A stretch of 64,000 bases of DNA, taken from Mytilus trossulus (lineage: Eukaryota). Numbering within the stretch: position 1 is the first letter of the stretch; each line of letters starts with the position of its first letter. This document shows positions 9,201 through 60,155 of this stretch, piece by piece. Where the stretch lies: positions 17,980,001 through 18,044,000 of the forward strand of contig NC_086386.1 in the NCBI RefSeq assembly GCF_036588685.1, given 5' to 3'. Below the pieces are notes generated by a model. That model ran no database searches. It was not told where the DNA came from and saw nothing but the letters and a program-made list of their open reading frames with translations. The position numbers and the translations under genes are program-made.

Positions 9201-12200
9201 TTATTGTTGAGGTCTATGACTCTTTTCATCTAAAGCCTGGACTACACCTTTCTGTAAGACAACTCCATGGTTGTGAAGAAGCATAGCAGGCCATACAATA
9301 AAGTCAACATAGATACCAGTTTTTGTAAACATTTCAAAACAGTTTGTATCTAGCTCCCAACTAACACCAGTATCAAATACAAAGCCTAATGGTGGATCCT
9401 GGATGGCACTATACCAACAGACCTCCAAACAGGACCTTACATAGGGTTCCAGCTCTGAGGGTATGTCCTTGGTTCCTGTTCCTGATTCTGGGGACATAAA
9501 TAACTGAAATGGAAAGTTAGGAAAACTACTTTAATTTCTATTCCTTTCTTAGCAATTGGCTGGACACATTTATCAATATAATATTTAAGGAAAGAAGCAA
9601 GGTTTATCTTCCTGATTTAGAACTTCAAGTTTTCAACAGTAATCTTCCAATATTGTAAATTTGTTTGTCTACCAATTACTGATGTACATTTGATAAATTA
9701 TATGCCCTTTACAAATCCATCTGATGTTTAGTTAAGTTTTACAATGGAGTCTTTTATATGTATGAACTCACATTTAGAATTATTATGTTAAAGATGACTT
9801 GTTTACAGACTTTTAAAAAAATGTATTGTTACAAGCAGAACACCTTGGTAGCAAATACAGAAGTCCTTCGACTTCCTTACCTTTTTTGCACCCTAGAAGT
9901 TGCTGTAATTGGTATAGACAGAAAAATGTAATCTTTATTTGACTTTGAAAACACCTTATTGCTATTTTGTCCTATCTGGGGAAAACACACATTTATACCA
10001 CATCGGTTTGGGTCAGGCCGCCAAAAAAGAGGTCATCAGTAGTGAGCTGAGGGAGGAAAAACTTAAGAAAGCTATAATCAAGAAAGAGTATGATTCACTT
10101 TTAAATTAAAATTGAAGTAAAAATATATTTTGTTTGAAGTATTTACGTTAGTTTAAACAAGTCTCATTAAAAAGTATCATGCATGGTGAATTGTTTAAAC
10201 AGGGTCCCAAATAGCTTCAACTAGATACAAAAAAGTTGTGTAATTTTATAACTTATCCGGAATGGAATAAATAGAGATTAGGTGTATAGCCAGGTTATGC
10301 ATGGATACAGTGCTTTAATATAACATGTGTCTTGTGCTGTTTGTAGATTCCTTGTGGGATCTTTGATTTAATATGCAACACAAAAGGAAGTTATGTAGTT
10401 TGAGGGGTTTGTGTCATTGTTATTTTGTTTATCAATATGGACAATAAGTGAATCTACTTACACCATATAAATTTGCTATTGTCTGTTTAGCTATATGTTT
10501 TCTTGTTTCTTTTACTACCTTTAAGTTTTTAACTGACAGTTGAGGAATGTTGAACTGAAAAAAAATATATGAAAATGAATAAAAGGAGATAATAGTTAAT
10601 TTCAATCAGAGAGAAACCATAACATAATTTAAACCCTTTTTTTTTATTTCCTTATTAAACATGTGAAAACATCATCCAATAATTCTGCAATGGTTTATTT
10701 TATTCAGCTTCATGTTTCATCTATTTTTGCCGAAAACTAGACTATTAACCTAAACCAGTTTAACATCCATCACACCTCTGACAACTTGGTCATGATTTCT
10801 TAACCAAGAGCCACTCATTTATACACGATATATGTTATGGGAAATACATATTGATCTTTTTAACAACTTCTCTGTACTTAGTAATAGATCACATGATTAC
10901 CATCCACTTATTTTCTTTTTTTTTTTGCTTGATGAAGTGCTATTAGTTAAAGACTTTTTTTATTGTATTTTATAAAAGATATTTACCGTTGACTCCACAC
11001 TCATGTTAGGACCATAAGGTACTAGATAAGTCATCTCTAAAATGTGTAACTGGTGCCTAGATAAAGCACAGCAGAACTCCCAACAATCCTGGTATAAATG
11101 AGAAAAAATATTATCAGTATTTAGCTTCTTAGTAAATGTGGTTTAAAAAGAAATTGTAAAGGATATATTTCTTAAAAATACAACAAATTCATTGGCAGTC
11201 CAAAAAAATGAGCAAAATGAGCATGTCTGACTAAAACAAGATATGCTGTAAGCAGGTTTAATGATTCCTGTACATTTAACAGCTCTATTACACCATTATA
11301 TTTTATAACAAATAAACTTATATTTATACCTTAAATATTGTAAGCAAATAAACACAGGACAGTTTTTCATCATTTAGTTTCTCGTTTGCTATTTCATAGG
11401 CTCTGGGCCATACATTCTGGTAAACTTGATTAAACATGTCTGCTATCTTTGTTGGTCTGATATTCTCCTCCATATTAGGTATATCTGGCATTTCATCAGG
11501 TGTTTTCTCTGTTATATATTTTGAAAGTCTGCAACAACAAAAAAGATGGATACTGATCATGCTAGGGTAAATGTATGTGAGGTTGGTCATATAAAAAGGT
11601 AAATGATCTCCAAATAACTTAGGATTACCTAAGTAAATACAGAAACTGGTGTTGCTTTTTTAAGTGAAACTCTTGATCCTTACTTTAAAATCAATGTATG
11701 AGTATTTTTCTTTCTCAAGTATCTCCTCATGTAATTAATAAAATAGAACTGCATGGTGAACTTGTTCCTGCAGAGGATGTTACAAATGTTTTGTAGTGTT
11801 GTGCCCATCATTTATTTTGTTGTGTTATAAATATTCAGTTTGGACAAAAATGTTCCTGAAACAGCTCACATGCAGAATTAAAACGTGTAAGATATTGACC
11901 ATTTTCCTCATTTTCATGAAAAACAAATGTTTGTACTTGCGTTGTCATATACAGTTCTTTATCTCCAAGGATTTCTGTCTTCTCTTTCTCTATACCCTCA
12001 ATTTGTTTCTGTAGCTTTTCTACTTGCTGATTTAAATCCACAATAACTGAATCTCTAGATTTTCCAGCCTTTTCCATAACAAACTGTGTCATTTGTTTGT
12101 TTAAATCTACGTTTTCTGTTTTATAGTTTTCCAACTCATCGTGTTGTTGACGTATTGAATTCTCAAAGTCAAGAACTTGTCTGAACAATGAAAATGTTGA

Positions 12201-14083: not shown

Positions 14084-14875
14084 ACCTCATATTCCCTAAA
14101 AGATATTAGCATCTAGATTTAATCTCAATAAATCTTAACAAGTACAGAATCTTTTTAATCAGTGTATGTCTTACTTTCTTTAACACAAAAAAACAATCAA
14201 CTTTCAACCTATATATTCTATGTTAAAAGATAAGTTTGAAGCTCCCTAGCTAGTAATATATATATATATATATAAATCAACTCCTCTTGAATATATTTAC
14301 TACTAACAAATATATTGAACTTTCCATATCTTACCTTAATGAAAGAAAAAAAAACCTTTTAAATTTGGAATGACATACTAAATAAATGCAGTTTTGATAT
14401 CTGATACATTAAATTATAAAGACCGTGTAAGAGTTGTAAAAATTCTTTAGACAACCAAACTTTTAAATAACCTTTGAAAATTAATGAATTGCATCCGACC
14501 AGTGAACGATTAAAAATGAAACAATATCAAGTTTTCGATCGATTGAAACATTTAATAAAGTTATACTACTGATTTATTGCGAACGGCCAATAGTTCCTGA
14601 GCGATAGAAGTCGGTCGTCTGAGCATTTTCTTCTCTTTGCGGTCTAAATTTCGGAAAGCAGGAAAAACTACGGACTAGCCTACTGTTCATGAAAAGAAGT
14701 TACATAAGTGTAGCATCTAACCAATGTTATTTCAACTGAACGGGCGTATGTTTTAATTTGCATAAGGGCAGTTTAGTTAAATGTGTGTGATAAGAACGAT
14801 TACCGTTATAATTATTATTGAATTATGATTACCTATCAGTATCATTATACGCATATACAAGAGAAGTCAGTTTTA

Positions 14876-15143
14876 CAGCAGATTTCAGTCAGTCTGTAGC
14901 TTTTGCTAACATCTTTGGTTAGCTTGCTTGTTAGCTGAACCGTGAAGTCATTGTAAGATAAGGTTTATTAACCTCCTTTTAAAGTAGCTTAGTCCTACAG
15001 AGAGATAAATTGGTTATCTGTTGGGCTAGTCTACTATTAAAGGAGGGTAGTTTACCTAACCTAGCAATGACTTCACGGTTCAGCTAACAAGCAAGCTAAC
15101 AAAAAATATTACACATTAGCTACATACTGACTGAAATCTGCTG
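14876..15143. mobile_element. Fold-back MITE, PIF/Harbinger-like (TTA TSD)
   Basis: 268-bp near-palindrome CAGCAGATTTCAGTCAGT ... ACTGACTGAAATCTGCTG with TTA on both sides. Inner arms GTTAGCTTGCTTGTTAGCTGAACCGTGAAGTCATTG and their reverse complement. Confidence 0.75.
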
Positions 15144-17072
15144 TTATATTTAGTTTATAAATACATTTGTATTTGAGCAAAATTGCAAAAATACAGGGTC
15201 GATTGTTTAATCGCTAATAAGTACAACTCTTCACACAATCATTATTAACAATTTACAACATATCAATACCGTGAAACAAAATCAATTCCAAGACTTAAAA
15301 TGTCCCCATTCTGACCGGACGTTTCTGAGTACTTGTTCATACCCCAAAGTCAAGCGAACGCCCCACTTTTAGCAAAGTGACCATTTTCTATTCACCAGTC
15401 ACCCACCCTTGGTGCTCAATGTTTTCGAAAATATGATGTTAATAATATGCAATTTCATCAATACTGGCCGTTTTCAATTATTAAATAATTCCGACACCTG
15501 AAAAAGGTCAAGTTGCCTTATTTTATTATAATTTTTGCCTTTGAATGGTGCTATCATGTGAGCACGAAATTCATTCTCATCACTACAAAGGTCAGTTCCT
15601 CCTTTGACGGACAATAAAATAACGATACCAAACACACCAAAGTAACAACTACCAACTCGCATTGGTTAAAGAAATGTTTTTGAACAATAAAAATAGATGC
15701 TAGAATTAAAGGTTTTGAAGTAATTACATAATATCGTTTTAGTTTTTTTTTATAATGAATTATCTAGTCGTATGTTAATGTTATTCTACAAAATCCGCCA
15801 TAGGGTCTTTAAATTGAAGTGGGATGAATTTTTTTTTTGATTCCATGTGACTGAGATGAAGAACGGCAACACATGGGCGTTTCCTTAGTGTTTTATGTTT
15901 TTATGTACACTTACTTTTTTAGTATTATAAATACATATATATCATATCCTTTTTTGTCTTTTATACATAGGCTTACTGTCTGAGTTCTGTCATTAAATAA
16001 CGTGAGTATTTCGTTTTCTTGTCATTTTGTTTGATAAATTAAAGATATCGTCCTTCAATATATTGCAGAATATTCCATAACTTAATTTTTAGTTTCTCTC
16101 AACCAGTTGCATCTTATCACAATGTTTACTCTATTGCAATCTGCTCAGTCAAAAAGCTCAGTCTGGTCGTACCAAACTGCATGCTGTTGTTGAAATGATA
16201 TAAAATGGAACAACATGTTCATTTGAAACAAACATCTCATTCTGAGTATCACTTGCTTGACAACAGACAAATGTTCAGCACTTTTTTTTACAGTAGTCTG
16301 GACAAGTATTGTAATTATTTAAAATTAGATTATCAGCAATGTATCAGCACAAAAATCATAAGAGAAAAATATCTAGAGATATCAATATATATAACTTGAA
16401 GCGTTAACTCGGACTCTTTTTCACTCAATCAGTAGTTTAACCAAATGTTCAGCGACGCTAGCGCAAAACAACTGATAATATCTGTATAAATATAGCAAAA
16501 CATAACAATAGAAAATAAAACCGTATCAATTACTATATTTGAAGGAAGATATCTAAAAGTATATATTCTGTTTACAAATGTCAACTACTGATAAATTGAG
16601 TGGACTTCATAAACAACAAAACATTGCATAGAACTACCCGTACATGTTGGTGCAATTCACTGTACCCAGAGTGAATGTGTTTTGTTTCAAATTTATACAT
16701 AGTCTAACAAATAAGAAGAATTTACTCTTTATCCTACAAATATCAGACGTAATGATTTATTAATAGGAATACAATGTAATAGTCACCAATAAGTCTACTC
16801 AGCCAAAAAGAAAGACTAGAAGATACCATATATTATATTATGTCTCACAGGAAATAAAACGGATAAGTAAGTAAGTATATATCAAATACTATTTATTGCA
16901 AATACATTTACACATACATTACGTTGATTTCTATATGCATTGAATGTGATATATTTCTAATATAAAATGTATAATAAAAAGAAATGTGCATACTATGCAC
17001 TTTCCTTTTTTCTATAATAAATAATAAATTATTATTTCTGATTTGTAACATAATCATTGTTCACATCCTATT

Positions 17073-20000
17073 TCAGTTTTTATACTGTGCAACTCCTTTG
17101 TATAAAATAGGTCCATTTATAAACAAATGCATTGCTGGCCAAACAACGAAGTCCACTGTATTCCCGCCTTGTGTATATTTCCTGAAGTCGTCTGCCTGTT
17201 CTTCTGCATCAAACCCATAATGCATCGGCGGTTCATTTATTGCACTATACCAACAAACTTCCAAACAACTTTCGACATAGGTGTGCAAATCTTCTTTTAT
17301 ATCTTTCTTCGCAGATTTAAATTTCTGAAACAGAAAATGTTCTTACGTTACAGAAATTGGGTACCTCTTTTGAATTTTGCATGCATGAACTAAAAGTTTG
17401 ACCTTGTAATTTGAACTTCTACTTTTAAACACAATAAGACAACAATCTGTATTTTTTTTTAAAGAAATGCCGATATTTCCGGAACACCTGCAAACAACCC
17501 CAGGTTTTGTGTGTTTCGTGTTTCTCAGTCTATTGTTTTATTTATTACTGGTTTGGTATCTCCCACTTCTTGTTTATCGTCATTATTATATCATGCTTTT
17601 TATCTGTTTTTTATGTTGTGTTATGTGTACTGTTATTTGGGTTTTTTTTGTCATGGCGTGTGAGCTTATTTGCGACATATGAGTTTTAAATCCCTTTGGT
17701 ATCTTATTTTCGCTTCTCCTCACTTGAACATGCTTCTGATTAGTAATACGACCAAAGCTATAACCAAAGACAAACAGGGACCATTTGATTCATGATCCGT
17801 GTAGTTCATATTGCAATGTTTATTTTTTTGGATAATTTTTCAAAAATCTATATTTAAATGACATTTATTATCTACTTGTTATAAACATACTGAATCTGTT
17901 TATATTGTAATATTTTCCTCTAAATTAACAACACGATTCAAAGTTTCATTCGTTTCATTTTGTCTAGTTAAAACAGCAGTTTTATCTGGACAAATTGTAT
18001 GTATCATTTTTAAACTTATATTGTACATAGATCTATTTTTCTTACATATTTTTTATCTATCATATTTTTTATATAAACTTTGTTCTGTTCAGATACTGAT
18101 TTTTACTTTGTCTTGTTGTGCATCTTTTTTAAAACAAAGCAAGATTAAAAAGGGTAGTTGAAATCTAGATGAAATAATGTTCTCATTCAAATCCCATTGT
18201 CGAAAACATCGTCAGTGGTGGTCTTCATCATATTTTGTTTGCATTTTTTATTTCGAGAATTTGTTAATGGTAGATCTTTAATGGTCCCTGTCAATATTTC
18301 CTGATTTTTTTTTACTCTTGGTAATTTTGTTTCTGTTTTGTATTGTTCAAATACATGTACCCGTCTAACGTGGAAGACTGACAAGCTGTATGTTAAATTC
18401 TTACTGTGAGTTTTAGGTACTTGTGTCGTTCGGTTGCTGTTTCATTGGAGTATAAAACTCCAAATATCGGGGTTTTATTTTCAACGATACCTAAAACTTC
18501 GTATGATTGAATTATATCTTATAAGTTTAGCACTGAATCCCAAATTGAACTGTATTTAAAATCTGTGAAATGTCCATTATAACAGCTGATTGAATTATTG
18601 GGTATGAAATATGATGTTTGCCTTTACGGAATCATCGATTCGCACTTTGTTACAATATAACTCTTTAAAAACTTTGAATTTTTGAATACTCCGGCTTTCA
18701 ATCTCAGGAATAGACTACCTTAGCTGTATTTGGCAAAACGTTTAGGATTTTATGGTTCTCAATGGTCTTCAACTTTATTTGGCCTCTTAAACTCTTAAAA
18801 CGCGCGTCTGGCGCAAGTTATTTTTTTATCCTGGTATCTATGATGAGTTTATTTATCTGTGTACCAACCTCGTACAAATTAGGCATCATTTCTTTAGCTG
18901 ATCGTTTTCGTGTTTCAGTCAGTAACGTCGAGCTTCCTGGTGACAATGCATACACACCATCCTAGAATAAAGAAACATTGACATATGATATTCATTTGTT
19001 CGTTCTACATATATATCTATCATTTGTCTTTTTTCGATCCACACGTTTGTGCTTTTAACGTCTGCATGTTTGTCTTTTTTATATGTGAAAATGAATAATT
19101 GAGCTATGTTTTGCTGTCAATAACAAGATTAAGTATTGTTATTGAAGTGAGTGCACTCATCACCCAACTGTCTAAAGGAAAACATTTATTGAAACCTAGA
19201 ATGATTCCTACGTATGTTGTCTTTTGTCAAAATGATGTTACATGTTTCTACAACACGACGCGTATTTAACCAATATAGCCACCTTTGTGAAAATAGAAGA
19301 TAAAAAAGTACAATCTTTTCCACTTTTGGAACGACAAATACTCTAAAAAATTGTGATATCATATCAGGTTATATATCTGTTAACTTTTACAATTGACATA
19401 AATCATCCCTCTTGAGAGTTATTGCTACTAATGTCGACGAATTGTTTTTGATGAAAAATGTAAAATGACAAAAAATATCGAACCATGAGGAATATTCTAA
19501 ATAGAAAGTCATTAAGCAAATGATAAAATCAAAAGCTATAACACAAAAAAGAAATGAATAACAACTGTCATATTACTGACTTGGTACAGGAATTTCTAAT
19601 GTTGAAAAGGATGGATGGAATCTGATTTTATAGCTAGCTAAAACTCTCTCTTGTATGAGCGTCGCCTACAATTCCATTATTTTGTCTACGATGTGTGAAC
19701 AAAAACAAACAGACATTATTGATAAAATTTAAAAAAATAGGGGTACAGCAAATCACTAATTGTTACAAGGATCGGGTTTTAAGAATTATGGGTTCTAAGT
19801 ATTAACCTTGAAATAACCATCTTTTTGTGGACTACATATTATACCCGTGTATATATAACTAAAGACTGAACAAAATCGCTACAAACCTAAGACAGGGCTT
19901 TTTTATCGATCGAAATAAAAATCATCCGGTTAAACCTTATATATAAGGCCAGGAGTTTGTGTTGCCTAGTCTTTAGTTTTCTATGTTATGTCTTCTGTAC

Positions 20001-23000
20001 TATTGTTTGTCTGTTTGTCTTTTTGTTTTTTGGCCATGACGTTGTCAGTTTATTTTCAATTTCTCAGTTTGACTGTCCCTCTGGTATCTTTCACGTCTCT
20101 TCAACCGCATTTAAAAACATTGGCTTACAGTATCATATAAATAGAAAAATGTAAATTCGATAATATTAGGACGCTTCTTTGGATGAGAATATGGTATCAA
20201 CTTTCAAGGTTTTAAGTGCCGAAAATTTATCCTGGCATTTGCGAATAACAATATTTGTTTCTACAAATCAAAATTACCTTGTTTTCTGATGCAAGTAGTA
20301 AGTTTTGTTCTAAGATTTTTGTCTGTTGTTCACAGGTTTCTTTACAGTAATTCCAACATTCCTATAAGAAACGTGTTACACTATATTTTAGATAATTGTA
20401 CCTTCAGTTAAAAAAATAAATTTCTTTTTACACATTGTAACTTAGAACTTCTGAAAATATCTATAATTAAGGACACAATAGTTAACCGATTATCAAATCT
20501 CGTTAGGGACGACATCAAAAGATCGATGTAGGATGAAAAACTTAGATCAAATAGTTTGGGGGTGGGGGGGGGGGGGTGTCAACATTGCTGCAAGTTTTGT
20601 TAATCTAAAATCGATTTTACATATATCCCTATTGGTCAATCAATTTTCCCCAAATTAAGTTAAGAGGGGGGGTGGGGTGTGGGGTCAGTGAAAAAACTAT
20701 ATGAATTAAGTTTTTTTTATCCTTCATTGAACTTTTGATGTCGTCCCTTAATCAATTAGGAACAGACCAAAACTGAGGGAATTAAAAGTGATGAAGATTG
20801 TTGCATTTTTATAGAAGAAAGTTATGATGAAAATTTCTTTTATAAAAAAAGCGTATTCTGTACACACGTAATGTGCTATTATTGCTGTGAAATTATATAT
20901 CCGTCTGACGTTTCTATACAGTTTAAAGAATTTAGAATATGCGGTATGTACTAATGAGACAACTCTCAATGCAAGTCACAATTTGTAAAAGTAAACCATT
21001 AACGGTCAAAGTACGGTCTTAACACAGATACTAGACTCACACCGACAGCAAGCTATGAAGGGTTCACAAAAAGACTATAGTGCAACATCATTCGATTGGG
21101 AAAACCAACGGTCTAGTCTTTTTAAAAATCGAGGATTGAGAAACACTTATAAACCACATAGACAAACGATAACTACTAAACATCAGATGGCAGATTTAGA
21201 ACAGGTGCAAACAAATGCAGAGGGTTAAAACGTTTAAATAGGTACAACACTTCACCCTTATCTTAAACAATAGGCTCACACTCACAAAATAGAAAGAAAC
21301 ACCATTAGATAACAATTGAAATGGCTTAACTCAATCCAATATACATGTATATGATATCAGATGCCTTTGCCTGTGGATTTTCCAATTGTCAAAAATGATG
21401 TCCTAAATACACACACATATAATCGCCATCAATGATAGTGATACATGGCTGTGTACATAATGTATATACAACTCGTCTAAACATCAACCCAACAATGTTA
21501 GATCTGTAAATTTGCTTTCGCAAATTTTTGGTTCTTCCCTCGCCGGGATTCGAACCCACTGCAGCCGTCCCGCTAGACCACACGACCACCTGGGCTCTAA
21601 AAAAAGAGCTTTCGCTGTTTCCACGTCAGTGTTAATCTAGCGGCGTACTAAAGTACATGCTATATAAGGCATGAAGATGTTATTGTTACAGATCAGCTTA
21701 ATTATCTATAGTAAAGGATCCTACAAATTAATGTAAGATACAGTCACAGAAAATAATTATATTAATAAGTACGTCTGAGTTAGTGACAACCCTACAACAG
21801 ATGTATTCATCGGATCGCCATCAATAATAGTGATACATGGCTGTGAACATAATGTATATATAACTCGTCTAAACATCAACCCAACAATGTTAGATCTGTA
21901 AATTTGCTTTCGCAAATTTTTGGTTCTTCCCTCGCCGGGATTCGAACCCATGCTACTGTGATATCGTGACACCAAATCGCCTGCACTGCAGCCGTCCCGC
22001 TAGACCACACGACCACCTGGGCTCTCAAAAAAAGAGCTTACGCTGGCCATGTGTTACCTTTCCACGTCAGTGTTAATCTAGCGGCGTACTACAGTACATG
22101 ATATATAAGGCATGAAGATGTTATTGTTACAGATCAGCTGAATTATCTATAGTAAAGGATCCTACAAATTAATGTAAGATACAGTCACAGAAAATAATTA
22201 TATTCATAAGTACGTCTGAGTCAGTGACAACCCTACAACAGATGTATCCATCGGATCGCCATCAATGATAGTGATACATGGCTGTGTACATAATGTATAT
22301 ACAACTCGTCTAAACATCAACCCAACAATGTTAGATCTGTAAATTTGCTTTCGCAAATTTTTGGTTCTTCCCTCGCCGGGATTCGAACCCATGCTACTGT
22401 GATATCGTGACACCAAATCGCCTGCACTGCAGCCGTCCCGCTAGAACACACGACCACCTGGGCTCTAAAAAAAAGAGCTTTCGCTGTTTCCACGTCAGTG
22501 TTAATCTAGCGGCGTACTAAAGTACATGCTATATAAGGCATGAAGATGTTATTGTTACAGATCAGCTTAATTATCTATAGTAAAGGATCCTACAAATTAA
22601 TGTAAGATACAGTCACAGAAAATAATTATATTAATAAGTACGTCTGAGTTAGTGACAACCCTACAACAGATGTATTCATCGGATCGCCATCAATAATAGT
22701 GATACATGGCTGTGAACATAATGTATATATAACTCGTCTAAACATCAACCCAACAATGTTAGATCTGTAAATTTGCTTTCGCAAATTTTTGGTTCTTCCC
22801 TCGCCGGGATTCGAACCCATGCTTCTGTGATATCGTGACACCAAATCGCCTGCACTGCAGCCGTCCCGCTAGACCACACGACCACCTGGGCTCTCAAAAA
22901 AAGAGCTTACGCTGGCCATGTGTTACCTTTCCACGTCAGTGTTAATCTAGCGGCGTACTAAAGTACATGATATATAAGGCATGAAGATGTTATTGTTTCA

Positions 23001-26000
23001 GATCAGCTAAATTATCTATAGTAAAGGATCCTACCAATTAATGTAATATACAGTCACAGAAAATAATTATATTCATAAGTACGTCTGAGTCAGTGACAAC
23101 CCTACTACAGATGTATCCATCGGATCGCCATCAATGATAGTGATACATGGCTGTGTACATAATGTATATACAACTCGTCTAAACATCAACTCAACAATGT
23201 TAGATCTGTAAATTTGCTTTCGCAAATATATATATATATATATGCATACCGACCAACATAAAGTCATTTGTATAAGATGGATTAAATAAATTTAACGGGT
23301 CGAAGCATGAACACAGCCAAAGACAGCTCTGAAACATTATATAGCTTAGTGCACTTCACAGTTTATGGAATCATTTACTTATATATATATTGACTTTATA
23401 AAAAAGACAGAAGTAAGAAAATAACCTTAAATATATTCAATAGGTAAATACAAATTTGTTTTTCATCCCCCTTATCTTCCGATTTCTCAAACGCGTCTGT
23501 CCATTTGTTATCATACAGGATAGAAATCATTTCCACCAGTTTCTGTGGCCGACGTGGATCACTCAGGTCAGCTATTTGGGGATTCTTATCGAGCATCTTT
23601 TCACCAGAAACTTTACCTAGTCTGGAATATTGATGAATTTTGTTAATAAGTGCATACAAAACTGGGCCTCGTATTGTTGAATCTGCAATGTATTCGTGTT
23701 TCGTTTTGAAATATATAAAAAAAAAAAATTAAAAAAAATTAAAGCATTTCCCAGAGCGAAGAGGACGTAACTTTTCACGGAAACTTTTATCGTTTCGGCT
23801 AAAATATAAACCATATTATATTTGTTCACGGAGTAACCGTTATTATTATGACGGAGATATTGGAATATTACTAAATCGGTCATAAATCTTTTATTTTTAT
23901 AAATGGACATTTTGTCTGAATGCTAGCGGGAAAAAAATATTATTCAATGTTGACTATGTTTTCCGCTGAACTCTTGCTAGTGTATATATTTTGGTTATTT
24001 TTGTTTACATTTTTACCTATTATGTCTGTTTGTCTTGTTTACGCACTATAATGGAATTTGATACGACTGTCACACAAGGTATAATACCAGGTTAATGCAC
24101 AACTATTTACATAATAAAATGCCTATACCAAGTCAGGAGATTATGACAGTTGTTTAAGTTCGTTGAATTTGTTTGAGCTTTTGTTACTGACATTTGAAAA
24201 GCAACGTTCCGATGTTAATTTTGTTCATTATTTTGTTCTTTTTCTTTGTGCTCACTGAAAAAGCTTTTTATACCATGCTTTATTCTATGATTGGAAAAAC
24301 TTTATTAAAGCATTTACGCCATTTAAGCTGAACGTGTGCATTCAAATTTGATTGCAGGGACCTTTTTTGCGACTAAAATAAGACGTCGGTTATTGTTTCT
24401 GTCTTTTCTTTTACGTTTACTGTCATGTGTTGCATTTTCTATATTCACTTATACATTTAAATAAGATTAATCTTTACTTTGATTGTAGTTCATCTTTGTC
24501 AGCCTTAAGGTCAGCGATATGTTTGTCCCTGTCATCCCGTTCTGCTTGTAGTCTTTTTACATCTTCTTTTAAGGTGACTATTATTGCCTCTTTTTGATTA
24601 TGCACCAAGTCCTTCATGGTTTTATTATGCGTGTTTTCGAGATCATGCTTTTGTTTCTCCAGTGTCTTAAGCTCATTCTGTAACTTTTTGAAGTCATAGT
24701 GGATTTGTTCAATATAGGCATCTGTATGGTGCAATCGACTGTAAATAGACAATTAAGTCCTAGATATATAATTCATTTTAGTTACTATTGGATTTGCTTC
24801 AGCAAATAGCTGTAAGTACTCTTAAATATGTATTTTGTTCATTAGGGTTTTTAATAGGATTTTTTTTAAACGATTTAAAATATGATTTGTTTAGTATGAT
24901 CTTGTCAAATTCTTTATTTGCGTGTACCATGCTAAAAGCACATACTTCTATAATGGTTACAGTTTGTGATATTTATCTAACCTCCTATACATGTCTAGGA
25001 ATATGATTGGTTAAAAGCGTCCGCGTGGAGACCGTGTAAATTTCATTTTAGGTTAATAGGGAGGCGGGGGTTATTGCATACACGGTTAGTAATGGTGTTA
25101 CGCCCTGTTATATATTCCATATTAGCTTTAAAGGGAGGCGGGGTTTATTCCATACACGGTAAGTAGTGGTGTTCAGCCCCTTTATCTTCCATATTAGCTT
25201 AAAAGGGAGGCGGCGGTTATTTCATACACGGTTAGTAGTGGTGTAAAGTCCCTTTATACGAACAAAACGGTACTGAAAAAAATCCTAATGGTTTCAACAG
25301 ACAAAGAAATTGATGATTAAGGTTGAAATAAATTCATAAAACACATTTAAACCTTACAAGTTGTTATTGTTGGCATCTGTTTTTGTAGGATCAATGGAAG
25401 TGGTTTCTTAATGCTTACAGTATTGAAGACATGCTCAGTTTGATAGGTATCTAGTCTAAATTTCACACGTTAAGATAGTCGGTAAGATAAATTCGTTACT
25501 TAAGAGGGCACATGGGTACAAAAATAATAGCAAATATTTAAACATTATTTTTTTCATAACAAATTTTATTCATTACATTATAAGTTTTAACATTATGATC
25601 ACATGGTTAAAAAATCAACCCAAAATATCAAGGCTTTTTAGCCCCAGATGATTTTTTAAATTTTGATGTCATTGAAAAAGCTCCAAATTATCTCCCTTTG
25701 GTGAAAAAAATGACATTTTTTGGCATTAAAATTGAAATATCTTTTTAAACGCATCGGTGACCTATATTTTTATTATTTTTTTCAAATAAGCGGCACTTAA
25801 ACTAAACAATTGTAAAATTTAAGCAATTAATTATATTAGGTTCTTTTTTTATTTCGATTTTACCTTTTTTTCTCCTATTAGTGTAACAAAGTACCTAAAC
25901 AAAAATGCATGCTTTTTTTGATGGCAGATTTTGAGCTTAAATGAACGGTGACCCCATATTTTTATTTTATTTTTCTATTAGGTATAGGATTAAGTTTATT

Positions 26001-38187: not shown

Positions 38188-38355
38188 TGTTAATATATAA
38201 GTGGAATAAAGCAACTCAATTTGGAATATATTTTGACAAAATATATCAAGGGGTTAATGCATGAACATTTATAGAATAGGATAGAATGTGTGTATGCAAT
38301 GTATCTATTCAAAATATATAAATAGTTATCAAAGGTACCATGATTATAAATTAGT

Positions 38356-38397
38356 ACGCCAGACACTCGTTTCGTCTACATAAGATTCGTCAGTGAC
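38356..38397 (-). ncRNA. Degenerate type I hammerhead ribozyme motif in a retrozyme/PLE-type repeat
   Basis: Minus strand GTCA-CTGACGA-ATCT-TATGT-AGAC-GAAA-CGAGTG-TC-TGGC. Core intact; stems II and III carry mismatches. Confidence 0.6.
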
Positions 38398-38941
38398 TCT
38401 CTTTTCAAAATAAAAGGTAACAACAGTTTATCGATGTTAAATCTCATTATAGAAAACACAAAAACTGAATGAATCGCTAGAATCATGTAAGGATAAAATT
38501 TGGGTATAAATAATGAATAGGGAATTTTGATATTAAATTGCAGTATTTCGTCTGAATAGTTTCAATAATGCAATATTTGTTAATGTTTGATTTTAGTTTC
38601 AGAGCTATGGACATTTGTAAACAGACTCATCGTCTGCACATTTTCTTTAAGGTGTTACAATATTAAGAATATTCTTTTTGTTATTATTTTTGCAACAAAT
38701 ATGTTGTTTCCGCAAGACATATATAACCCGTAAAATTGATGGATTGTTGGTTGCTCTACGCCGCATTTGCACAACAAGGTTATATCGCAGCGGTACCCGT
38801 AAGAGATTACAACCTAATCTGTTTTAATATTAGTGCGATCAGCATTGACATAAACCACACGTATATTTTCCCTATTTTACAACAAACCAGAGTATGAAAT
38901 AATTCAGTTACAGAAAAATTTGTGATAGTTTGCAGCTGACC

Positions 38942-39339
38942 TTTCCTAAGACTTTACAAACAAAACTTTCTGAGCGTAGTAAGACTTTACACACAAAACT
39001 TTCTGATCTTCCTAAGACTTTACAAACAAAACTTTCTGAGCTTCCTAAGACTTTACAAACAAAACTTTCTGAGCGTAGTAAGACTTTACACACAAAACTT
39101 TCTGAGCTTCCTAAGACTTTACAAACAAAACTTTCTGAGCTTCCTAAGACTTTACAAACAAAACTTTCTGAGCGTAGTAAGACTTTACACACAAAACTTT
39201 CTGAGCTTCCTAAGACTTTACAAACAAAACTTTCTGAGCTTCCTAAGACTTTACAAACAAAACTTTCTGAGCTTCCTAAGACTTTACAAACAAAACTTTC
39301 TGAGCTTCCTAAGACTTTACAAACAAAACTTTCTGAGCT
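38942..39339. repeat. 33-bp minisatellite, ~12 units, with 99-bp higher-order period
   Basis: Unit A CTTCCTAAGACTTTACAAACAAAACTTTCTGAG and unit B CGTAGTAAGACTTTACACACAAAACTTTCTGAG, in the order A B A A B A A B A A A A. Confidence 0.95.
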
Positions 39340-39779
39340 TTACTGGTGAATACAACAGGTTTTTGAAACGATGTGTTAATAAAAAAAGAAAAACAAATTG
39401 TCATGGCCTATGCTCGTTTTAACATGACATCATATGTCTATAGTTATATGATAGGACAAGTCAAAACGTTTAGTGTCCAAAGCAGGCATATAAAACACGT
39501 TTTAAAGGTAGCAATTTTAAGGAATAGAAATATAGACATAGCTCGTTAGCAAAAATGAAAGTCAAGAATTCAAAAAATTACCATCGCACAATAGCACAAT
39601 GTCGGGATGTACAAGTACCGAGACACCTCAAATACATATCGCGCAAAAAAAAGACAAATAAAACCATACTGTAACACGTGCACGTTATTAAGAGGATAAA
39701 CATGCAACGTCAGTACATAACATCTATACTTGAAGACCATCGTGTAGTATTTGTGAAGTTAATACGAAATATTTACCAA

Positions 39780-52104: not shown

Positions 52105-52504
52105 TTTTATTTTGAATTGCTATAAAAATATCCGAACTAAGCTTTTATATAGTTTTTCTTTCGAAAAGTATTCTATATTCATAAGAATCACACATTATGT
52201 GAATAAAAACATTTCATATTCAGTAAAATATTTGTGAAATTGCAATATGTTTGTAAGAAGGGGAGATAATTGTTTTTTTGGTTTCAATAAGTCCTTATTC
52301 AAAAGAATAGTATTTTAGCATTGTTTAGGTTATCTCCCCAAGGAAACTTATCAATAGCATATTGTTATTTCACATATATTTTACTAAATATATGATGTAT
52401 TATTTTAAATGATATATATAATTCTTATAAATATAAAATCCTTTTCGAAAGAAAAACTATATAAAAGCTTAGTTTGGACATTTTTATAGCAATTCAAAAT
52501 AAAA
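52105..52504. repeat. ~400-bp fold-back inverted repeat between convergent paralogs D and E
   Basis: TTTTATTTTGAATTGCTATAAAAAT...TTTCTTTCGAAAAG, with its reverse complement ending at 52504. Confidence 0.8.
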
Positions 52505-53081: not shown

Positions 53082-56000
53082 TCACATTTGTTCTCTTTCT
53101 CCTTCGGAATCTTTCAGTTGCACAACACCTTTATAAAGCAATGGCCCATCAATATGGAGATACATTGCTGGCCATACTAGATAGTCTACAAATTTTCCTG
53201 ATTTTGTATAACCTCTAAAATCTTCTTTATTCTTTGTTGGATCAAAACTAAAATCCAGTTTCGGGTCATTAATAGCAGCGTACCAACAAATTTCCATACA
53301 AGCATCTACATACAGTCGTAATTCTTCTTTCTGCCTCGCTTTCGTTTTCCAGTAAAACTTAAAAACAAAAGTCGTTAAAATAACAAATTTACCGACAACA
53401 AACTACATGTATATGTATCTATAAACACTTAAATGGTAATAACATACCATAATTTAGGATAACTATATTTTAACAGAAATATAATAAGCCTTGTCGTGAA
53501 CCTACCTTAAAATTGAGTATTGACTGCAGTAAAAATGATGAATATGACTAAGTGGTCGTTGCTTACCATAGTGCTTGAATTGCCCATTTAACACTAGTCT
53601 AAATCATATACATTCCTTTAATCTTTTATTTAGAATATATTGTCAATTTTACTTAAACTTGCATTTTCTCAGTTGTTAACCATATTCAAAGGTCACATGC
53701 GAGTCAATTATACATGTTACCCTTTCGATATCTTTGTTATCTTTCAAATTGTTTCTTATGTATATTTAATATTGGGATATGTCTGTTTTGTTAGTCCAAG
53801 AACCTTTGTAATATTGTTTTGATTCATCACGGTCTTAGTTATTTCCATTCGAATTTTCATTCTTCTACAACAACGTTGTTTCGGTATCTAACATGCTACT
53901 ATATTATTCTTATAACTATTTTGTTCTACATGTACATTTGGTTTTGTCTGTATTCTTTTTAATTGCTTTGACGAAGGTCTGCGTGTAAGTACCGTAACAA
54001 TAATAAGATTGGATATAATTGAATTTATTACCTGGGTTAAATTAACTAACGTATGTTTTGCGACTGCTTTTCTTGCGTCTTTTATCATTTTCAGTTCTGA
54101 CTTTGAGAATGTCTGTATTAATCCCTGTAGATGGTAAAATCAACTTAACACAAAATCACAAACCGATCATGTCTATAGTATATGAGAAGAGTTTCTAATC
54201 AAACATATTTACATATTGAACCCATACACGTATGCAGGTGCTTTTATAAAGTTAATTACGTCGTCGGAGCGCCGGGCCACACTTACACATATTTTGGTTT
54301 GCCCAAACCCTACCCAAAGGTAGTGACAATGGATAGGTAAGTAAGCATTTTTTTTATTTCGACAAAGAGAAATTGAAGTGTCTGATGTTTTTTAGTCTGA
54401 GTGAGTGATGCTGATCTGATAAAAAAAAAACTAATTTCAAAGCTCACCGATAAAAGTTTTTGAGTAGGCAGCTTTTTTCTGGGTAGGTTAACTTGGGGCA
54501 AACATACATATTTTTTTTTCATCGCCCGGATTGTCTTGACTTTTTGTCATTTGAGGTGGTGATTGTAACTGTTAATCATTTTAGTTTAGATAAAGACGAT
54601 TTGGAATTTAATATGTAATGAATATCGAAAAGCTTACTACGATGTATCTGTTTGATGCTTATTCTATTGACTTTAAGTTTTCATCTTCTTTTTTTTACGT
54701 ATATTTGTTAAAAAAAACTTGACTTCGTGAAAAAGGTCTATGTATCAATTTTAACTACAGCATCCCTGAGTCACGCAATAAGGCAGCAACCATTTGATTT
54801 TCGGGGGGGGGGGGGGGGGGGGCTATGTTTTTTTTTCTTGACAATCTATTTTTTTGGCGACAAGTCGAAAACAATTTTTTTTTCAATTTTAGCATAACAT
54901 ATAGTGGCAGCTGAGGGTGAAACAAACACAATTGTTTTTTCTCAGGGTAAAAAACAAATTATTTTTTTCTCCAAAAACTGGAAACAATTTTTTTTCCAAA
55001 AATAAGGCCCTTAAGAATTCTCGCTTGGATTGTTTTTCATTTGTCATTTTTTTGGAATTTGCTTTGAAGGCCGTACGGTGATCTTTAATTGTTAATTTCT
55101 GATTCATTCGGTCTCTTGTGGAGTGTTGTCTCATTGGCAATCATACCACATCTTCTTTTTACATATATCGTTTGTTGTACATATATTTTTGTTTATGTCT
55201 TTTTATGGTTTTGTTCCTATCACTTAATTAATGTAAGGTTTGTTATTTTCCTTTATTTTCTTTTCTTTTCATATGATATTGAGAACGTACCTGTCTATTC
55301 ATTTCTTCCGTGATAACTTCTGGTCGCACGAACTTTTCCTGTAATATTTCCAGTTGGTTATCAGCGCATTCGCGACAGAACTCCCAGCATTTCTGAAATT
55401 TGAGTTAAAGCACCTAAATATTTATTGATCTTTATTTATTGTTTTGATGGAATAGTAAATTGTAATTTATGGTCATTATCATAAAAAAAAAATGTGTTAA
55501 ATGTATACTTTTAAAAACATATTTGAAATATTTATTTGATTGATTCATAGCTTTACTGATATCTTGCTTTTATTATAAATTGTTTTGAATTCAAGAATGT
55601 TGTAAATTTTCAAATCAGAAGTAAGGTTTTAATGATTTTTAAGCAAGTCAAAATGATTATAAAAATGTAGAATCACAATTAAAGTCTATATATTTACCCT
55701 GAATATATCTACCAGTCTTTCAGCGGATAATTTCTCATTATTTTCATCTTTGAAAACATGTTCAAATGCATCAGTCCATAAGTTGTCATACAAGCTATTG
55801 AATTTTTCACAGAGTTTCTGAGGACGGTTTGGATCACTAAGATCAGTAATGGTAGGGTTACCATCAGTCAACTTATCTCCTGCAGCTTTACTTAGACTTT
55901 ATAAATATAATACTCAGCATTTTAATAGCATAAAGATAAAAGTGTAAATGGTTATTCATTAGTAATGTTTGATAACAAGAACAACAAGTAACGTGTAAAC

Positions 56001-59000
56001 CTCTGATGGTCAACGGTATGGCTTCTGTTTTAATTATTTTGGTATTTTAGTGAAAAAAAGTAAAACTGTATATCTTTTTGTATTGCTAAATTTTTGATTT
56101 CTATTATCTAGTAATATACATACAATGGGCCAACGTTGGCCCTATGTATTGCATATAACCGTACAACGTTGGGCCATCATGTTGGGCCAACGTAAGCCCA
56201 CTTTTTATTACTTCCAATGGGTCGATGCCTCTGCTGGTGGACTATTAGTCCCCGAGGGTATCACCAGCCCAGTAGCCAGTACTTCGGTACTGGCATAAAA
56301 ATACGGATTTTTTTGTGTTATTAAAATTTGCTGTAACAAAATGATAAAAATTATTATAAATTAAGGAATGCATCTCCCTCATGCAAAGCTCTGATTCCTT
56401 TCACGGATTTGGCTATACTTTTTGGACCTTTTGGATTATAGCTCTCCATCTTTTATATAAGCTTTAGATTTCAAATATTTTGGCCACGAGCATCACTGAA
56501 GAGACATGTATTGTCGAAATGCGCATCTGGTGCAAGAAAATTGGTACGGTTAATTTTATTGCACTTACATGTTGGGCCAACGAAGGCCCACTTTGCACTT
56601 ATACGTTGGGCCAACGTTAAAATACAACGATGGGCCAATGCAATGATATACGTTGTGCCAATGTTGGGCCAACATACTCATGTTGTCTGGGTACATCATT
56701 GACTTTCTGTGTATATTGAACACTTACTCATTTGTTATAATGACCAATATAATTATTGTACACGTAAAGTGTGTTTTTGTTCGGTATAATGTTGTATAAT
56801 TACTGTCCAACTTGACGTAAATCCAACGTTTATTGATAGAGATATTCATATTACCTTGTTCTCAAGCTCTCCACTTCCTTCTTCAATTTTTCAGTTTCCT
56901 CTTTAAGTCCTGTGGTTTCTTTTCGAAGTTCTGTTATTTCTTTCTCTTTTTCTGTCATTTCTTTTTGTGTTTGTGTCGTTCTGTGTTTTTCGTTTCTTTC
57001 TCTCTCTTCCTTTAGTAACCTTGATAGTTCTTCTGTTTTCTGTTTTAGTTCTTCTATCATTTCTGTATCTTTCTGCTTACTTTTAAACGAAATTGAATCC
57101 AAGTTGTAATTACGTGTATGTATTGTCATAACACAAAGCGTTATCGTATGCAACAGATCTTTTTTATAATGCAGACTTTATACTTAATCTATTGGAAGTT
57201 GGATGTGTACTGATTGATATTTTAGTCTTAGATACACTGTAACGTCCTGTATGTGTTTTCGTTTTAAGTTAACCTTTCTTTATATTGATCTATAATTACA
57301 AATAATGAGTTAAGCTTTATCAAATGATTTTTCAAAGTTTTTTTTTCTTGTATGTTGTGCTGTTACACAACCGTCCCAGTTTGGGTTGAGCGATCACAAA
57401 AATGTTTTACTGCACCACATGTGTATTTGCTAGTCCCAAGTCAGAATCCTGTAGTTTAGTGATTGTCGTTGGTTCAAGCCTTATGTTTGTAACCACAGAG
57501 TAGCAAGCAAGTTTTAAATTTGCAATCCGGAGTCAAAAGTCCTTAATATTAAAATAGCTGTTTTCATTTTATATACCCCTAACCTTTTCCCCTTACCTTT
57601 CTATCAATTCTTGCACTTTTTGATGAAGAACCTCCATTGACGACTGACCACCTTCTAGGGCTTCTTTTAGGATTTGACGAATTGCATCCAAATCTTGTAC
57701 TCCAGTCGGTTTCCAATTACTCCATTGATTTCCATCTATCTTATTTTCATGTTTAGTCCCTCCTCGCAGTTGTGCAGTCTTTGCCTTTTCAAGCATACCA
57801 GGTTTAGTAACATCACTCAATGTAAATAAAAAAAGACGTTGAACTAATGTCATATGAGACAGCAACTTAAAACACAATAACAAAAAATGCATTGTTAGCA
57901 GCAATTTGTTGGTAGTGCATCATAAAATTTACACAATGGTATTCTTTAAATGGATGTCGAAATCTAGAAACGTATTTTAAAACCTGTTATTTTTTTTAAA
58001 ACTATTATTGAAATGTGACAAGTTCATATCAACAATATTCATACATTTTTGAAAATAAATATCAAATATCAAGTATTTTTTTCTTCAGATCTCTATCGGA
58101 TACACCTACATGTATTTGTACAACAGAATGAAAGAATTATCGTTGATTTCTAGTACCTGACAATCTTTCCATAACGTTTTCTGGTAACTTTGATTTGTTT
58201 TGTCCAGAAAGTTTAAAACCTTGAATTTTGAGCGAGGTTTCATGTAATATTCAATGTCAAAATAGTGCTTTGTGTACACACAAATGCACTTCCAACAACT
58301 TGCTGCTGAGAAGTTATCGAATATTAGTGCGAAATGTGTTGACACGCTGCCACTTACGACTATCGACTATAGTCATTGACTAGTTAACTTGAACTTATGT
58401 GACGTCATACACCTTAATTGTTTGAAAATAATTATATTCCCCCTAAAATTTGACAATACGTATTGACATTGATTGTTTTAACCAAAATTTTGAAATTTGA
58501 TAAATAAACGTTGCAATGACTTGGCGGGAAATATTTTATATGAAATAAACCACCAAAATTTAGTTCCACTATACCTGTTTTGTGTTGTAGCAGTAATGTT
58601 TAAAGCCTGTTCTGTAGCAGTAGTTTCTGTTTTGTCCACTTCTTTCGTTGCTTGCTATTTCATAGAAAAACACTTTATATCGTTGTCCAGCGTAAACAGA
58701 ATTTCACATTTTCAAACAAAATTAGTATATGTATTTAGTTTATGTTATAACAAGTCATAGAATAAGTATTACGATCAACTACAAGAAACTCGGGGCCAAA
58801 TTCCCTCGAAATATGGTTCAAAGTAATACAAACTAGCTAACTATGATACAATAACGACACAAGAACAGGGCTCTTGAATTGAAGTATGAAGTTTTGCATA
58901 TTCTTTTCAGGCCCGACCTGAAAAATCAGGTGTATATTTCCACGTTTGATGGACAGTTGCGTCTGTAGCAATAACACCGTATCATCTTATTTTCTTATCG

Positions 59001-60155
59001 TTGAATGATTGTGAAAACATGTTTCCAACAATATACAAGACAGAAATCTTAGGAACTCGACACACAAACAGTAAATAGAAAAGTTACTCAAGTTGCTGCA
59101 ACTTGAAAAAAAAACAATACAACTTAGAACATACATGTACCTCTGCTAATGGACTTTGTTAGTTTAATATACTTTTTTGTCATTCTTGGTTTATATCATC
59201 ATTACATTTTCTTTTTTAAAGGTTTTGTCCTCGGGCATAACTGTGATATTTATATGAAATATATTTTGTAAAAATTTGCATCTGGTGTTTATTACTTTTA
59301 CTTTTGTCGGAAGAGAAAGAAAGAGAGGGGGGATTTCAGGAGGAATTTGAAAATGATTATTCTGGCCAGGTAATACTAGTAACTGAGGGAAAAAATTCCA
59401 CAGAAAACAGGACGAAAATGAATAGTCTGCACTAAACATTTAGGGAATGAATGTGTACAAAATACAAAAGTGAAGATAAAATGAAACATATTGTAAACGA
59501 TATTATAGATACGACTATAGAACAGGACACAAGATTTCTTTATTTATAATTTGTGTAATAAAAGATAATAGCCAAAGAACTTCAGTTTTCGATTTATATT
59601 TAAAATGAAGGTCGTTTGACGTTTAAATTTTATAATAAATGCAACGACTTCAATATTACTGGTGTAAAACCGAGAAAACATTTACTACTGGTTTGAACCT
59701 GCAATTCTGATTCATAATATCGCTCTCTAGCCCGACCTCTTGAATAAACCATTACCAAGTTCAGCTTATCATCAGTGTAACACGACAGGTAAAAATGAGG
59801 AAATTCTGTGTTTCTTTATATTTCGATATGCATAAAATCACTCTGGTTTCAAGTATTGTTTGTGTTGCCTTTTGTAATATATTTTCTGTATTTCCATCCT
59901 TAATTTTTTTAGTGTGTTTTCTACTTTTTTCACTTTCTTATGGTTTCGTCGGTCTTTTTTTTTGTAAATTGCACCTGAACAGCTTTTTCATGACAGGCTT
60001 TGGCAAGAGATTGTTGTAATTGATGAAATTCATTATTAATTTATTAATTTTGGCCTTTTTGATATTGTGACTAGAAACCAAAAAATGCAAAACATTACCG
60101 TTGAAACCAGCACTGTTGATTTATAAGGACCGGTACCTTCAGTACTGGAAGCCAT
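53082..60155 (-). CDS. Mieap/SPATA18-like protein, paralog E (~415 aa, 9 coding exons)
   Basis: Exons 60137-60155 (MASSTE, tentative), 59206-59240 (tentative), 58575-58654, 57597-57815, 56855-57079, 55698-55896 (LSKAAGDKLTDGNPTITDLSDPNRPQKL), 55291-55392 (KCWEFC), 54032-54124 (KDARK), 53082-53357 (YVDACMEICWYAAINDPKL...VWPAMYLHIDGPLLYKGVVQ). Total 1248 nt, in frame. Confidence 0.83.
56203..56560 (+). mobile_element. Retrozyme-like non-autonomous retroelement monomer (~351 nt)
   Basis: Bounded by direct repeat TTTTATT (56203-56209 and 56554-56560). Structured 5' domain with a C(TTCG)G hairpin and a hammerhead near the 3' end. Confidence 0.75.
56490..56533 (+). ncRNA. Type I hammerhead ribozyme (minimal, palindromic stem III)
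   Basis: GCATCA-CTGAAGA-GACA-TGTAT-TGTC-GAAA-TGCGCA-TC-TGGTGC. Stem I GCAUCA/UGGUGC, conserved CUGANGA and GAAA, stem II GACA/UGUC. Predicted cleavage after C56527. Confidence 0.85.

What the first reader, a model, noticed from the sequence alone, without database searches (positions are those of the whole stretch)
56203..56560. Intact hammerhead ribozyme in a ~351-nt retrozyme-like monomer inside an intron of paralog E
Seen: a complete type I hammerhead core (CUGAAGA, GAAA, UC) with 6-bp stem I, 4-bp stem II and a 6-nt palindromic stem III (UGCGCA). The unit is delimited by TTTTATT direct repeats 351 nt apart and is inserted into another repeat. Established: minimal type I hammerheads with palindromic stem III typify Penelope-like elements and non-LTR retrozymes, cleave best as dimers, and yield small circular RNAs in metazoans, including mussels as I recall. 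The ribozyme is antisense to the host pre-mRNA, so it would not cut it; this may explain why it is tolerated.
Basis: partly seen in the sequence, partly recalled or inferred. Interest (0 to 1): 0.75.

Follow-up and report, generated by a model that had tools for sequence, protein, structure and literature searches.

The report
Solo mussel retrozyme copy inside intron
This is one stranded copy of a very common Mytilus mussel repeat carrying a hammerhead ribozyme motif predicted to self-cleave, very likely the published retrozyme family; it sits antisense in an intron and likely does nothing there, but its copies stop at one shared point, which likely marks where reverse transcription starts.

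Summary
56490-56533 (+) is a complete type I hammerhead motif; 1 of 300 shuffles gave an equal one, and 4 of 12 pairs change on both sides in a sister family. It lies in a 351-nt unit inserted into another high-copy repeat, antisense in a 958-nt GT-AG intron of a Mytilus MIEAP-domain gene. The unit is very high-copy and occurs in tandem elsewhere, matching the published Mytilus non-LTR retrozyme.

Corrections:
- The ribozyme is not the minimal PLE type, and the published mussel monomer cleaves alone (~0.1/min).
- TTTTATT is the unit's own junction, not a target-site duplication.
- A solo copy has one cut site, so it cannot make a circle.
- Antisense tolerance is untested.

The useful by-product is that copies share a 3' end and have scattered 5' ends. 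Four clean copies from three subfamilies stop 33-47 nt past the cut but always 4-6 nt before a conserved hairpin module. That suggests internal, Penelope-like priming positioned by the module. I did not find it in the main texts I read. Known family, modest interest.

The parts
56203..56560 (+). Solo retrozyme copy: one 351-nt unit plus up to 7 nt terminal redundancy, running junction to junction
   Evidence: 341/356 identical to the tandem unit in L002; summed contig depth about 0.9-2.5 million in run X1 vs 12-71 in unique flanks (not a copy number)
56490..56533 (+). Type I hammerhead motif; predicted cut after C56527
   Evidence: Sequence; descriptor and shuffles; covariation with sister family, 4 of 12 pairs; same letters as the first L002 copy
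56528..56560 (+). 33-nt segment between the cut site and the shared 3' insertion end
   Evidence: Loose ends behind 56560 in 144/11/81/85 contigs with unrelated AT-rich flanks; L002 ends at the same base
56216..56294 (+). Conserved two-hairpin module; in tandem or circular RNA it lies 4-6 nt 3' of the insertion end point
   Evidence: z -3.85; 5 of 31 pairs compensatory in 5 copies; 74/86 identical to the sister family vs 53-70% elsewhere (23 of those bases are the search pattern); sister-family contigs align here and diverge behind 56288
56203..56209 (+). TTTTATT, left copy of the unit junction (host T run and unit T run overlap by about 2 nt)
56554..56560 (+). TTTTATT, right copy of the unit junction and 3' end of the insertion
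56115..56202 (.). Left part of the host repeat (high-copy, rich in GGGCCAACG units, left-truncated copy)
   Evidence: Depth 470-2400 in the 3 DNA runs; other copies continue left of 56119; X2 record 17 lacks 56115-56694; internal repeats
56561..56694 (.). Right part of the host repeat
   Evidence: Depth 980-9450 over 56609-56710 in the 3 DNA runs; empty site in X2 record 17
55897..56854 (-). Host intron, 958 nt, GT..AG, phase 2
   Evidence: contigs of run X17 (RNA by guess) cover both flanking exons but not the unique intron bins
53085..60155 (-). Host gene: coiled-coil plus MIEAP (PF16026) protein, fifth of six paralogs in the window
   Evidence: Pfam; last exon 96% to M. galloprovincialis, 93% to M. 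edulis; exon chain
38319..38412 (-). Second family copy: 5'-truncated, sister subfamily, decayed ribozyme, 3' end at the same junction
   Evidence: 73/85 to L001
18650..18855 (+). Third family copy: 5'-truncated, L003-type subfamily, 5' half of the ribozyme deleted, 3' end at the same junction

Best explanation
This is a single, slightly aged copy of a high-copy Mytilus hammerhead repeat, very likely the published non-LTR retrozyme, that was likely inserted by reverse transcription into another repeat inside an intron, antisense to the host gene, where it is predicted to be inert. Steps: (1) Tandem copies elsewhere exist (shown); they are transcribed, self-cleave and are ligated to ~350-nt circles (published for M. 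galloprovincialis; inferred for this subfamily). (2) A Penelope-like RT/endonuclease nicks AT-rich DNA and starts reverse transcription inside the RNA at the U-rich junction 4-6 nt upstream of a conserved hairpin module. The shared end is shown; the enzyme and the module's role are inferred by analogy to the anole PLE. (3) cDNA runs back through the ribozyme's scissile bond, so the template was a circle or an uncut multimer, not the linear cut-to-cut monomer (follows from the sequence). (4) Synthesis usually stops early, giving 5'-truncated copies (shown). Here it ran one full unit and joined at the same T run, which makes the TTTTATT repeat with at most a 2-3 nt target duplication (repeat shown; joining inferred). 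(5) With one cut site and no module downstream of its 3' end, this copy cannot make a circle and likely cannot be copied again; the pre-mRNA strand holds no ribozyme core (shown).
For: Ribozyme motif. Family and tandem form: (periods 350 in L002, 355 in L001). Genus. Published match: PMC7229834 reports ~5000 HHRs in two similar families in 350-390-bp repeats in M. galloprovincialis, with circRNA. Shared 3' end: loose ends behind 56560 in 144 (X1), 11 (X17), 81 (X2) and 85 (X3) contigs, median about 250 nt, consensus agreement 0.39-0.5; this is the largest listed class in each run. Listed 5' ends with long flanks are scattered, 1-10 contigs per place. Four clean copies (window 56560, L002:1208, window 38319, window 18855) end 33, 33, 43 and 47 nt after the cut but 6, 6, 4 and 5 nt before the module helix; a fifth, degenerate one (L003) ends about there. 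No listed pile of ends at the cut itself or at the unit's other T runs. PLE precedent: internal RT start downstream of the HHR, nick at 5'-ATT-3', need for RNA 3' of the start site (PMC11167929). Retrozymes derive from PLE pLTRs in Xenopus, and solo monomers are common (10.64898/2026.07.22.740005). No CUGANGA on the minus strand of the unit.
Against: No direct sequence comparison with the published Mytilus clones: the supplement was unreadable and the GenBank entries are not on hand. Rfam gave no hammerhead hit. The active monomer fold is not the minimum-energy fold (-3.7 vs -7.8 kcal/mol), and stem I has probability about 0.01 in the circle and in context, so cleavage of this copy is not shown. 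The covariation is one subfamily split (3 vs 3 rows); the measure 'pairs with a change on both sides' was reached by 110 of 500 shuffles. One search shows only the best-supported loose-end rows (1205 not shown), counts contigs rather than insertions, and pools at 56560 any end a few bases further along the unit. No autonomous PLE sharing this junction or module was found or could be searched for. An automatic measure put L002's end at 27 nt against its own variant junction, while BLAST against the window gives 33. In the anole PLE the start site is not homologous to the cut DNA, whereas here 2-nt T overlaps exist at both ends.
Confidence: 0.75

Rival explanations
1. Same retrozyme, but the shared end is set only by pairing of an A-rich nicked target with the U-rich junction (LINE- or PLE-type microhomology priming); the hairpin module does something else (promoter, RNA stability, ligation).
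For: All clean ends fall in a TATT(T) run and flank consensus is AT-rich; both junctions of this copy overlap host T's by about 2 nt.
Against: The unit has five other runs of 4-7 T and no listed pile of 3' ends at them (top rows only). The spacing to the module is constant (4-6 nt) while the spacing to the cut varies.
Confidence: 0.25
2. The unit is the pseudo-LTR of an autonomous or deleted Penelope-like element, and these copies are 5'-truncated PLE insertions made from long linear RNA, with no circle involved.
For: PLE insertions are mostly 5'-truncated with one terminal repeat, and pLTRs are related to retrozymes. Uncut RNA was the main substrate for the anole PLE in vitro.
Against: L001 and L002 are unit-on-unit tandems with no other sequence between units. 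The listed loose ends before 56203 are the previous unit's tail. Circles are the main RNA form in mussel.
Confidence: 0.12
3. The copy has a host function: an antisense ribozyme or structure that regulates the MIEAP-domain gene, kept by selection.
For: The ribozyme core is intact and shows no listed difference from the family majority; run X1 carries the same flanking junctions of the host repeat.
Against: The whole 56115-56694 stretch is absent from the matching contig of organism B (X2 record 17, one contig at depth 4.1). The copy differs from the family majority at 6 listed places outside the core, and one change breaks a module pair. The neighbouring family copies are decayed.
Confidence: 0.04
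4. DNA-level spread: the unit is a satellite monomer moved by recombination or excised DNA circles, not by reverse transcription.
For: The insert is exactly one unit with a short repeat at both ends, as recombination of a one-unit circle at the T run would give.
Against: Most other copies are 5'-truncated with a fixed 3' end in sense polarity, the pattern expected of target-primed reverse transcription.
Confidence: 0.06

Closest known systems
Mytilus galloprovincialis non-LTR retrozyme (Cervera and de la Pena 2020, PMC7229834)
   Same: Genus Mytilus; type I HHR; unit of 350-355 nt; two related ribozyme families; tandem copies; low GC (38%); very high copy; predicted circle fold that does not present the ribozyme
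   Different: This is a solo monomer, not a tandem. The paper's main text does not describe insertion ends or a conserved module. Sequence identity to its clones was not testable.
Solo retrozyme monomers of vertebrates (Li, Clavereau, Pollet 2026, 10.64898/2026.07.22.740005)
   Same: Dispersed single units regarded as inactive offspring; 42-44% of Xenopus copies overlap introns; PLE origin proposed
   Different: No mollusc sampled; the main text has no analysis of insertion ends, RT start or orientation.
Penelope/Poseidon PLE of Anolis (PAc; Frangieh 2024, PMC11167929)
   Same: Type I HHR upstream of a fixed internal end point; AT-rich targets; RNA 3' of the start site needed
   Different: PAc encodes RT and endonuclease, starts about 85-92 nt past its cut in an AC-rich stem-loop, has two start sites that define the 30-40-bp tail, and shows no target homology. 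Here there is no ORF, one end point seen, U-rich and just 5' of a hairpin.
Minimal type I HHRs of PLEs and Terminons (PMC7761336 passages)
   Same: Type I topology; palindromic segment that allows a two-strand fold
   Different: Those lack helix III; this one has a 2-bp helix III with tetraloop and a 4-bp stem II.

Membership tests
Type I hammerhead ribozyme | Conserved core CUGANGA / GAAA / UH with three helices, helix I open | tested here: met
   covariation
Type I hammerhead ribozyme | Match to an Rfam hammerhead model | tested here: not met
   no hammerhead family at gathering score or E<=10. This tests library coverage; whether Rfam's models cover this variant was not checked.
Type I hammerhead ribozyme | Self-cleavage at the predicted site | not testable with these tools
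   Published for one mussel repeat (~0.1/min), subfamily unknown
Metazoan non-LTR retrozyme | Type I HHR within a 150-450-bp, low-GC, non-coding unit | tested here: met
   351 nt, GC 0.376
Metazoan non-LTR retrozyme | Family occurs as head-to-tail tandem repeats and in many copies | tested here: met
   L001, L002; joint 56553->56203 and depth. This locus itself is a monomer.
Metazoan non-LTR retrozyme | Expressed as linear and circular unit-length RNA | tested here: inconclusive
   Run X17 (RNA by guess) holds the unit at depth up to 6800 vs 35-70 on host exons, but contigs cannot show circles, strand or locus
Active (circle-forming) retrozyme locus | At least two ribozymes in tandem | tested here: not met
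   One motif only at this locus
Published M. galloprovincialis retrozyme families | Sequence identity to the deposited clones | not testable with these tools
   Supplement unreadable; genus, size and two-family pattern agree
Minimal PLE-type HHR | Lacks helix III | tested here: not met
   A-U and U-A pairs close a GCGC tetraloop; U-A changes to C-G in the sister family
Penelope-like element (autonomous) | RT plus GIY-YIG ORF next to the pLTR | tested here: not met
   No such ORF: the unit is flanked by host repeat and MIEAP exons
PLE-mobilised non-autonomous element | Fixed internal 3' end downstream of the HHR, 5' truncation, AT-rich target | tested here: met
   (top rows only)
PLE-mobilised non-autonomous element | Shared terminal sequence with an autonomous Mytilus PLE | not testable with these tools
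   No genome held

The most novel reading that the evidence does not exclude
Mussel retrozymes carry a dedicated cis-signal for their mobilising enzyme: a conserved ~80-nt hairpin module that positions an internal reverse-transcription start 4-6 nt upstream of itself. Because the module lies downstream of the start, only circles or multimers can be copied and solo copies like this one are dead ends. This would name the missing recognition element of animal retrozymes, tie them mechanistically to Penelope-like RTs, and give the circle a reason to exist.
Probability: 0.45. Interest if true: 0.6.

Novelty: already known. Interest (0 to 1): 0.3.

Why it matters
The locus itself is ordinary: one of thousands of copies of a family described in this genus, and intronic solo copies are common in other animals. 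What may matter is the pattern of ends. A 2020 review (PMC7761336, passage) says animal retrozymes show no conserved motif pointing to the enzyme that moves them, and a 2026 preprint links them to PLEs only by distribution and phylogeny. A fixed 3' end held at a constant distance from a conserved hairpin gives a concrete candidate signal. It can be tested with a genome-wide tally and with the existing in vitro PLE assay.

Tried and rejected
- Rfam: no hammerhead or other credible family; 7 weak chance hits at E 1.2-9.7.
- No whole genome is held, so orientation bias, copy number and a partner PLE could not be tallied.
- Pattern scans found 0 loci in viral contigs, 0 in genome contigs and 3 in metagenome contigs.
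- Earlier-findings look-ups were empty.
- TTTTATT as a target-site duplication: rejected, it is the tandem junction.
- The 27-nt host repeat on both sides (56178-204 / 56568-94) as a long duplication: rejected. Seven other bases lie between the insert and the right copy, and the copies differ at 2 of 27 places. The listed retrozyme-free form has only one such unit, so this duplication's origin stays open.
- A Pol III A/B-box promoter across the junction (box consensus recalled, no call): not pursued; the B-box-like bases are paired in the module and the unit has T runs of up to 7.
- An HDV-like or pseudoknotted second ribozyme in the module (topology recalled): an alternative 7-bp helix exists but is invariant, leaves no room for P4 or J4/2, and had no Rfam hit.
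- A distal extension of stem I is possible but not column-homologous between families, so it was not counted.
- Literature on whether a sense intronic ribozyme harms splicing: search listing only, not used.

Full report
Observation. The described motif is present at 56490-56533 on the plus strand with the predicted cut after C56527, and TTTTATT occurs at 56203-09 and 56554-60. My descriptor found 1 type I hammerhead in the 64 kb, both strands; 1 of 300 dinucleotide shuffles gave an equally strict hit. Rfam did not recognise it. On 6 aligned copies (window, 2 in L002, 2 in L001, 1 in L003), 68 of 72 cells pair and 4 of 12 pairs change on both sides: one in stem I, two in stem II, one in stem III. 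Slid controls pair 14-44%. The changes reflect one split between two subfamilies, and 110 of 500 shuffles reached the 4-pair count, so this is good but not deep covariation.

Setting. The window holds six paralogs with a MIEAP (PF16026) last exon. The fifth, on the minus strand, matches Mytilus proteins (96% M. galloprovincialis and 93% M. edulis on the last exon). The element sits in its 958-nt GT..AG intron, 55897-56854, antisense, and the pre-mRNA strand of the unit has no CUGANGA. It interrupts a different high-copy repeat at 56115-56694. That repeat's retrozyme-free form is in all 4 runs laid, and one contig of organism B (X2 record 17, depth 4.1) lacks the whole stretch. Run X1 carries the same flanks as the window.

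Family. A scan of metagenome contigs gave 3 loci. L002 is a 1.35-mer, 341/356 identical, period 350. L001 is a tandem of a sister family, period 355, 68% identical overall. L003 is a third subtype. In the four runs laid (4 of 24 listed), summed depth over the unit in DNA runs is of order 10^5-10^6 against 4-70 in unique flanks; this is not a copy number. A head-to-tail joint 56553->56203 is listed in 3 of 4 runs. The window copy differs from the majority at 6 listed places (56297, 56335, 56347, 56371, 56446, 56466), none in the ribozyme; 59 rows were not shown. This matches PMC7229834: ~5000 type I HHRs in M. galloprovincialis, two similar families, 350-390-bp repeats, monomer cleavage ~0.1/min, abundant circles, and mussel circles predicted not to present the ribozyme. 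My circular fold likewise gives stem I a probability of about 0.01. I could not compare sequences with the published clones; that supplement may also bear on the end pattern and module below.

The motif has a 2-bp helix III with a tetraloop, so it is the invertebrate retrozyme type, not the minimal PLE type that lacks helix III. The need for dimers is published for amphibians. Still, the two-strand fold is the minimum-energy state here (-27.3 vs 2 x -7.8 kcal/mol; active monomer -3.7), and the palindrome is kept in the sister family, so dimer help is possible. TTTTATT is the unit's own junction; comparison with the neighbouring host unit leaves at most 2-3 T's as target duplication. One cut site cannot release a unit, so this locus makes no circle. 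Antisense tolerance is untested: two more family copies lie in the window, 18650-18855 (+, between exons of a minus-strand paralog) and 38319-38412 (-, about 400 nt past a plus-strand paralog's last ORF). All 3 are antisense (1 in 8 by chance) and those 2 have damaged ribozymes.

The ends. Loose ends behind 56560 number 144, 11, 81 and 85 contigs in X1, X17, X2 and X3, with long, unrelated AT-rich flanks (agreement 0.39-0.5); this is the largest listed class in each run. Listed 5' ends with long flanks are scattered at 1-10 contigs per place, and no pile is listed at the cut (1205 rows not shown; ends a few bases past 56560 are pooled there). Four clean copies of three subfamilies end 33, 33, 43 and 47 nt after the cut but 6, 6, 4 and 5 nt before the first helix of the next unit's module; L003 is degenerate and ends about there. 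The module (56216-56294) folds well (z -3.85), has 5 compensatory pairs of 31 in 5 copies, and is the best-conserved part between families (74/86, or 51/63 without the 23 search bases, vs 53-70% elsewhere). Sister-family contigs not chosen by my pattern also align there and diverge behind 56288.

Mechanism. Shown: shared 3' end, scattered 5' ends, copies that span the scissile bond. It follows that the template was a circle or an uncut multimer. Inferred: target-primed reverse transcription starting internally, positioned by the downstream module, by a Penelope-like enzyme. The anole PLE starts internally downstream of its HHR, nicks at ATT and needs RNA 3' of the start; it differs in start sequence and distance and shows no target homology. 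The exact one-unit length here may come from one lap of a circle or from annealing at the same T run; the data do not separate these. No partner PLE could be sought.

What is known. The family, its circles and the suspected PLE link are published, and the 2026 preprint adds phylogenetic support in Xenopus and shows solo and intronic copies are common. I did not find the fixed end or the module in the main texts of PMC7229834 or the preprint, or in the listings of searches; supplements were not seen. Papers seen: PMC7229834, parts 1-4 of 6 (whole main text, no supplement); PMC11167929, parts 1-2 of 4; 10.64898/2026.07.22.740005, parts 1-3 of 5 (supplements not seen); PMC7761336, PMC8557442 and 10.1101/721605, passages only; all others, search listings only.

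Verdict. A real, correctly spotted ribozyme motif in a solo copy of a known mussel retrozyme, likely inert. Interest 0.3, carried mostly by the insertion-end signature, which gives a testable candidate for the element's mobilisation signal.

Noticed in passing
window 38319-38412 (-): 5'-truncated sister-family retrozyme copy with a decayed ribozyme, ending at the unit junction; TATTTTGAA occurs on both sides, possibly a duplication but partly element-derived.
   Followed up: yes
window 18650-18855 (+): 5'-truncated L003-type retrozyme copy with the 5' half of the ribozyme deleted, inside another paralog, ending at the unit junction.
   Followed up: yes
window 56115-56694: Host repeat: high-copy, built of GGGCCAACG units, left-truncated here, with TACAT at both edges and absent from one contig of organism B; class (MITE or Helitron-like) not determined.
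   Followed up: partly
window 9200-62400: Cluster of six coiled-coil plus MIEAP-domain paralogs in mixed orientation (last exons near 9207-, 17076-, 37336+, 50450+, 53085-, 62174-).
   Followed up: partly
loose ends before 56491 in run X1: 9 contigs join a different upstream sequence to the start of stem I, perhaps a further subfamily sharing this ribozyme.
   Followed up: no
window 21557-23227: Tandem array of a 441-nt unit, 3.8 copies, 93% matches; no hammerhead core spacing found in it.
   Followed up: partly
window 14875-15144, 52105-52504, 5026-5182: Long imperfect palindromes, MITE-like.
   Followed up: no
window 38943-39340: 33-nt tandem array, 12 copies, open in several frames, about 1 kb after a paralog's last exon.
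   Followed up: no
window 56233-56239 and 56262-56268: A perfect 7-bp alternative helix inside the conserved module, incompatible with the predicted fold; possible conformational switch, no covariation evidence.
   Followed up: no
window 55863-56171, run X1 record 4: Identical contig at depth 58 against 12-15 for neighbouring unique pieces; may mean this part of the locus is multi-copy in that sample.
   Followed up: no
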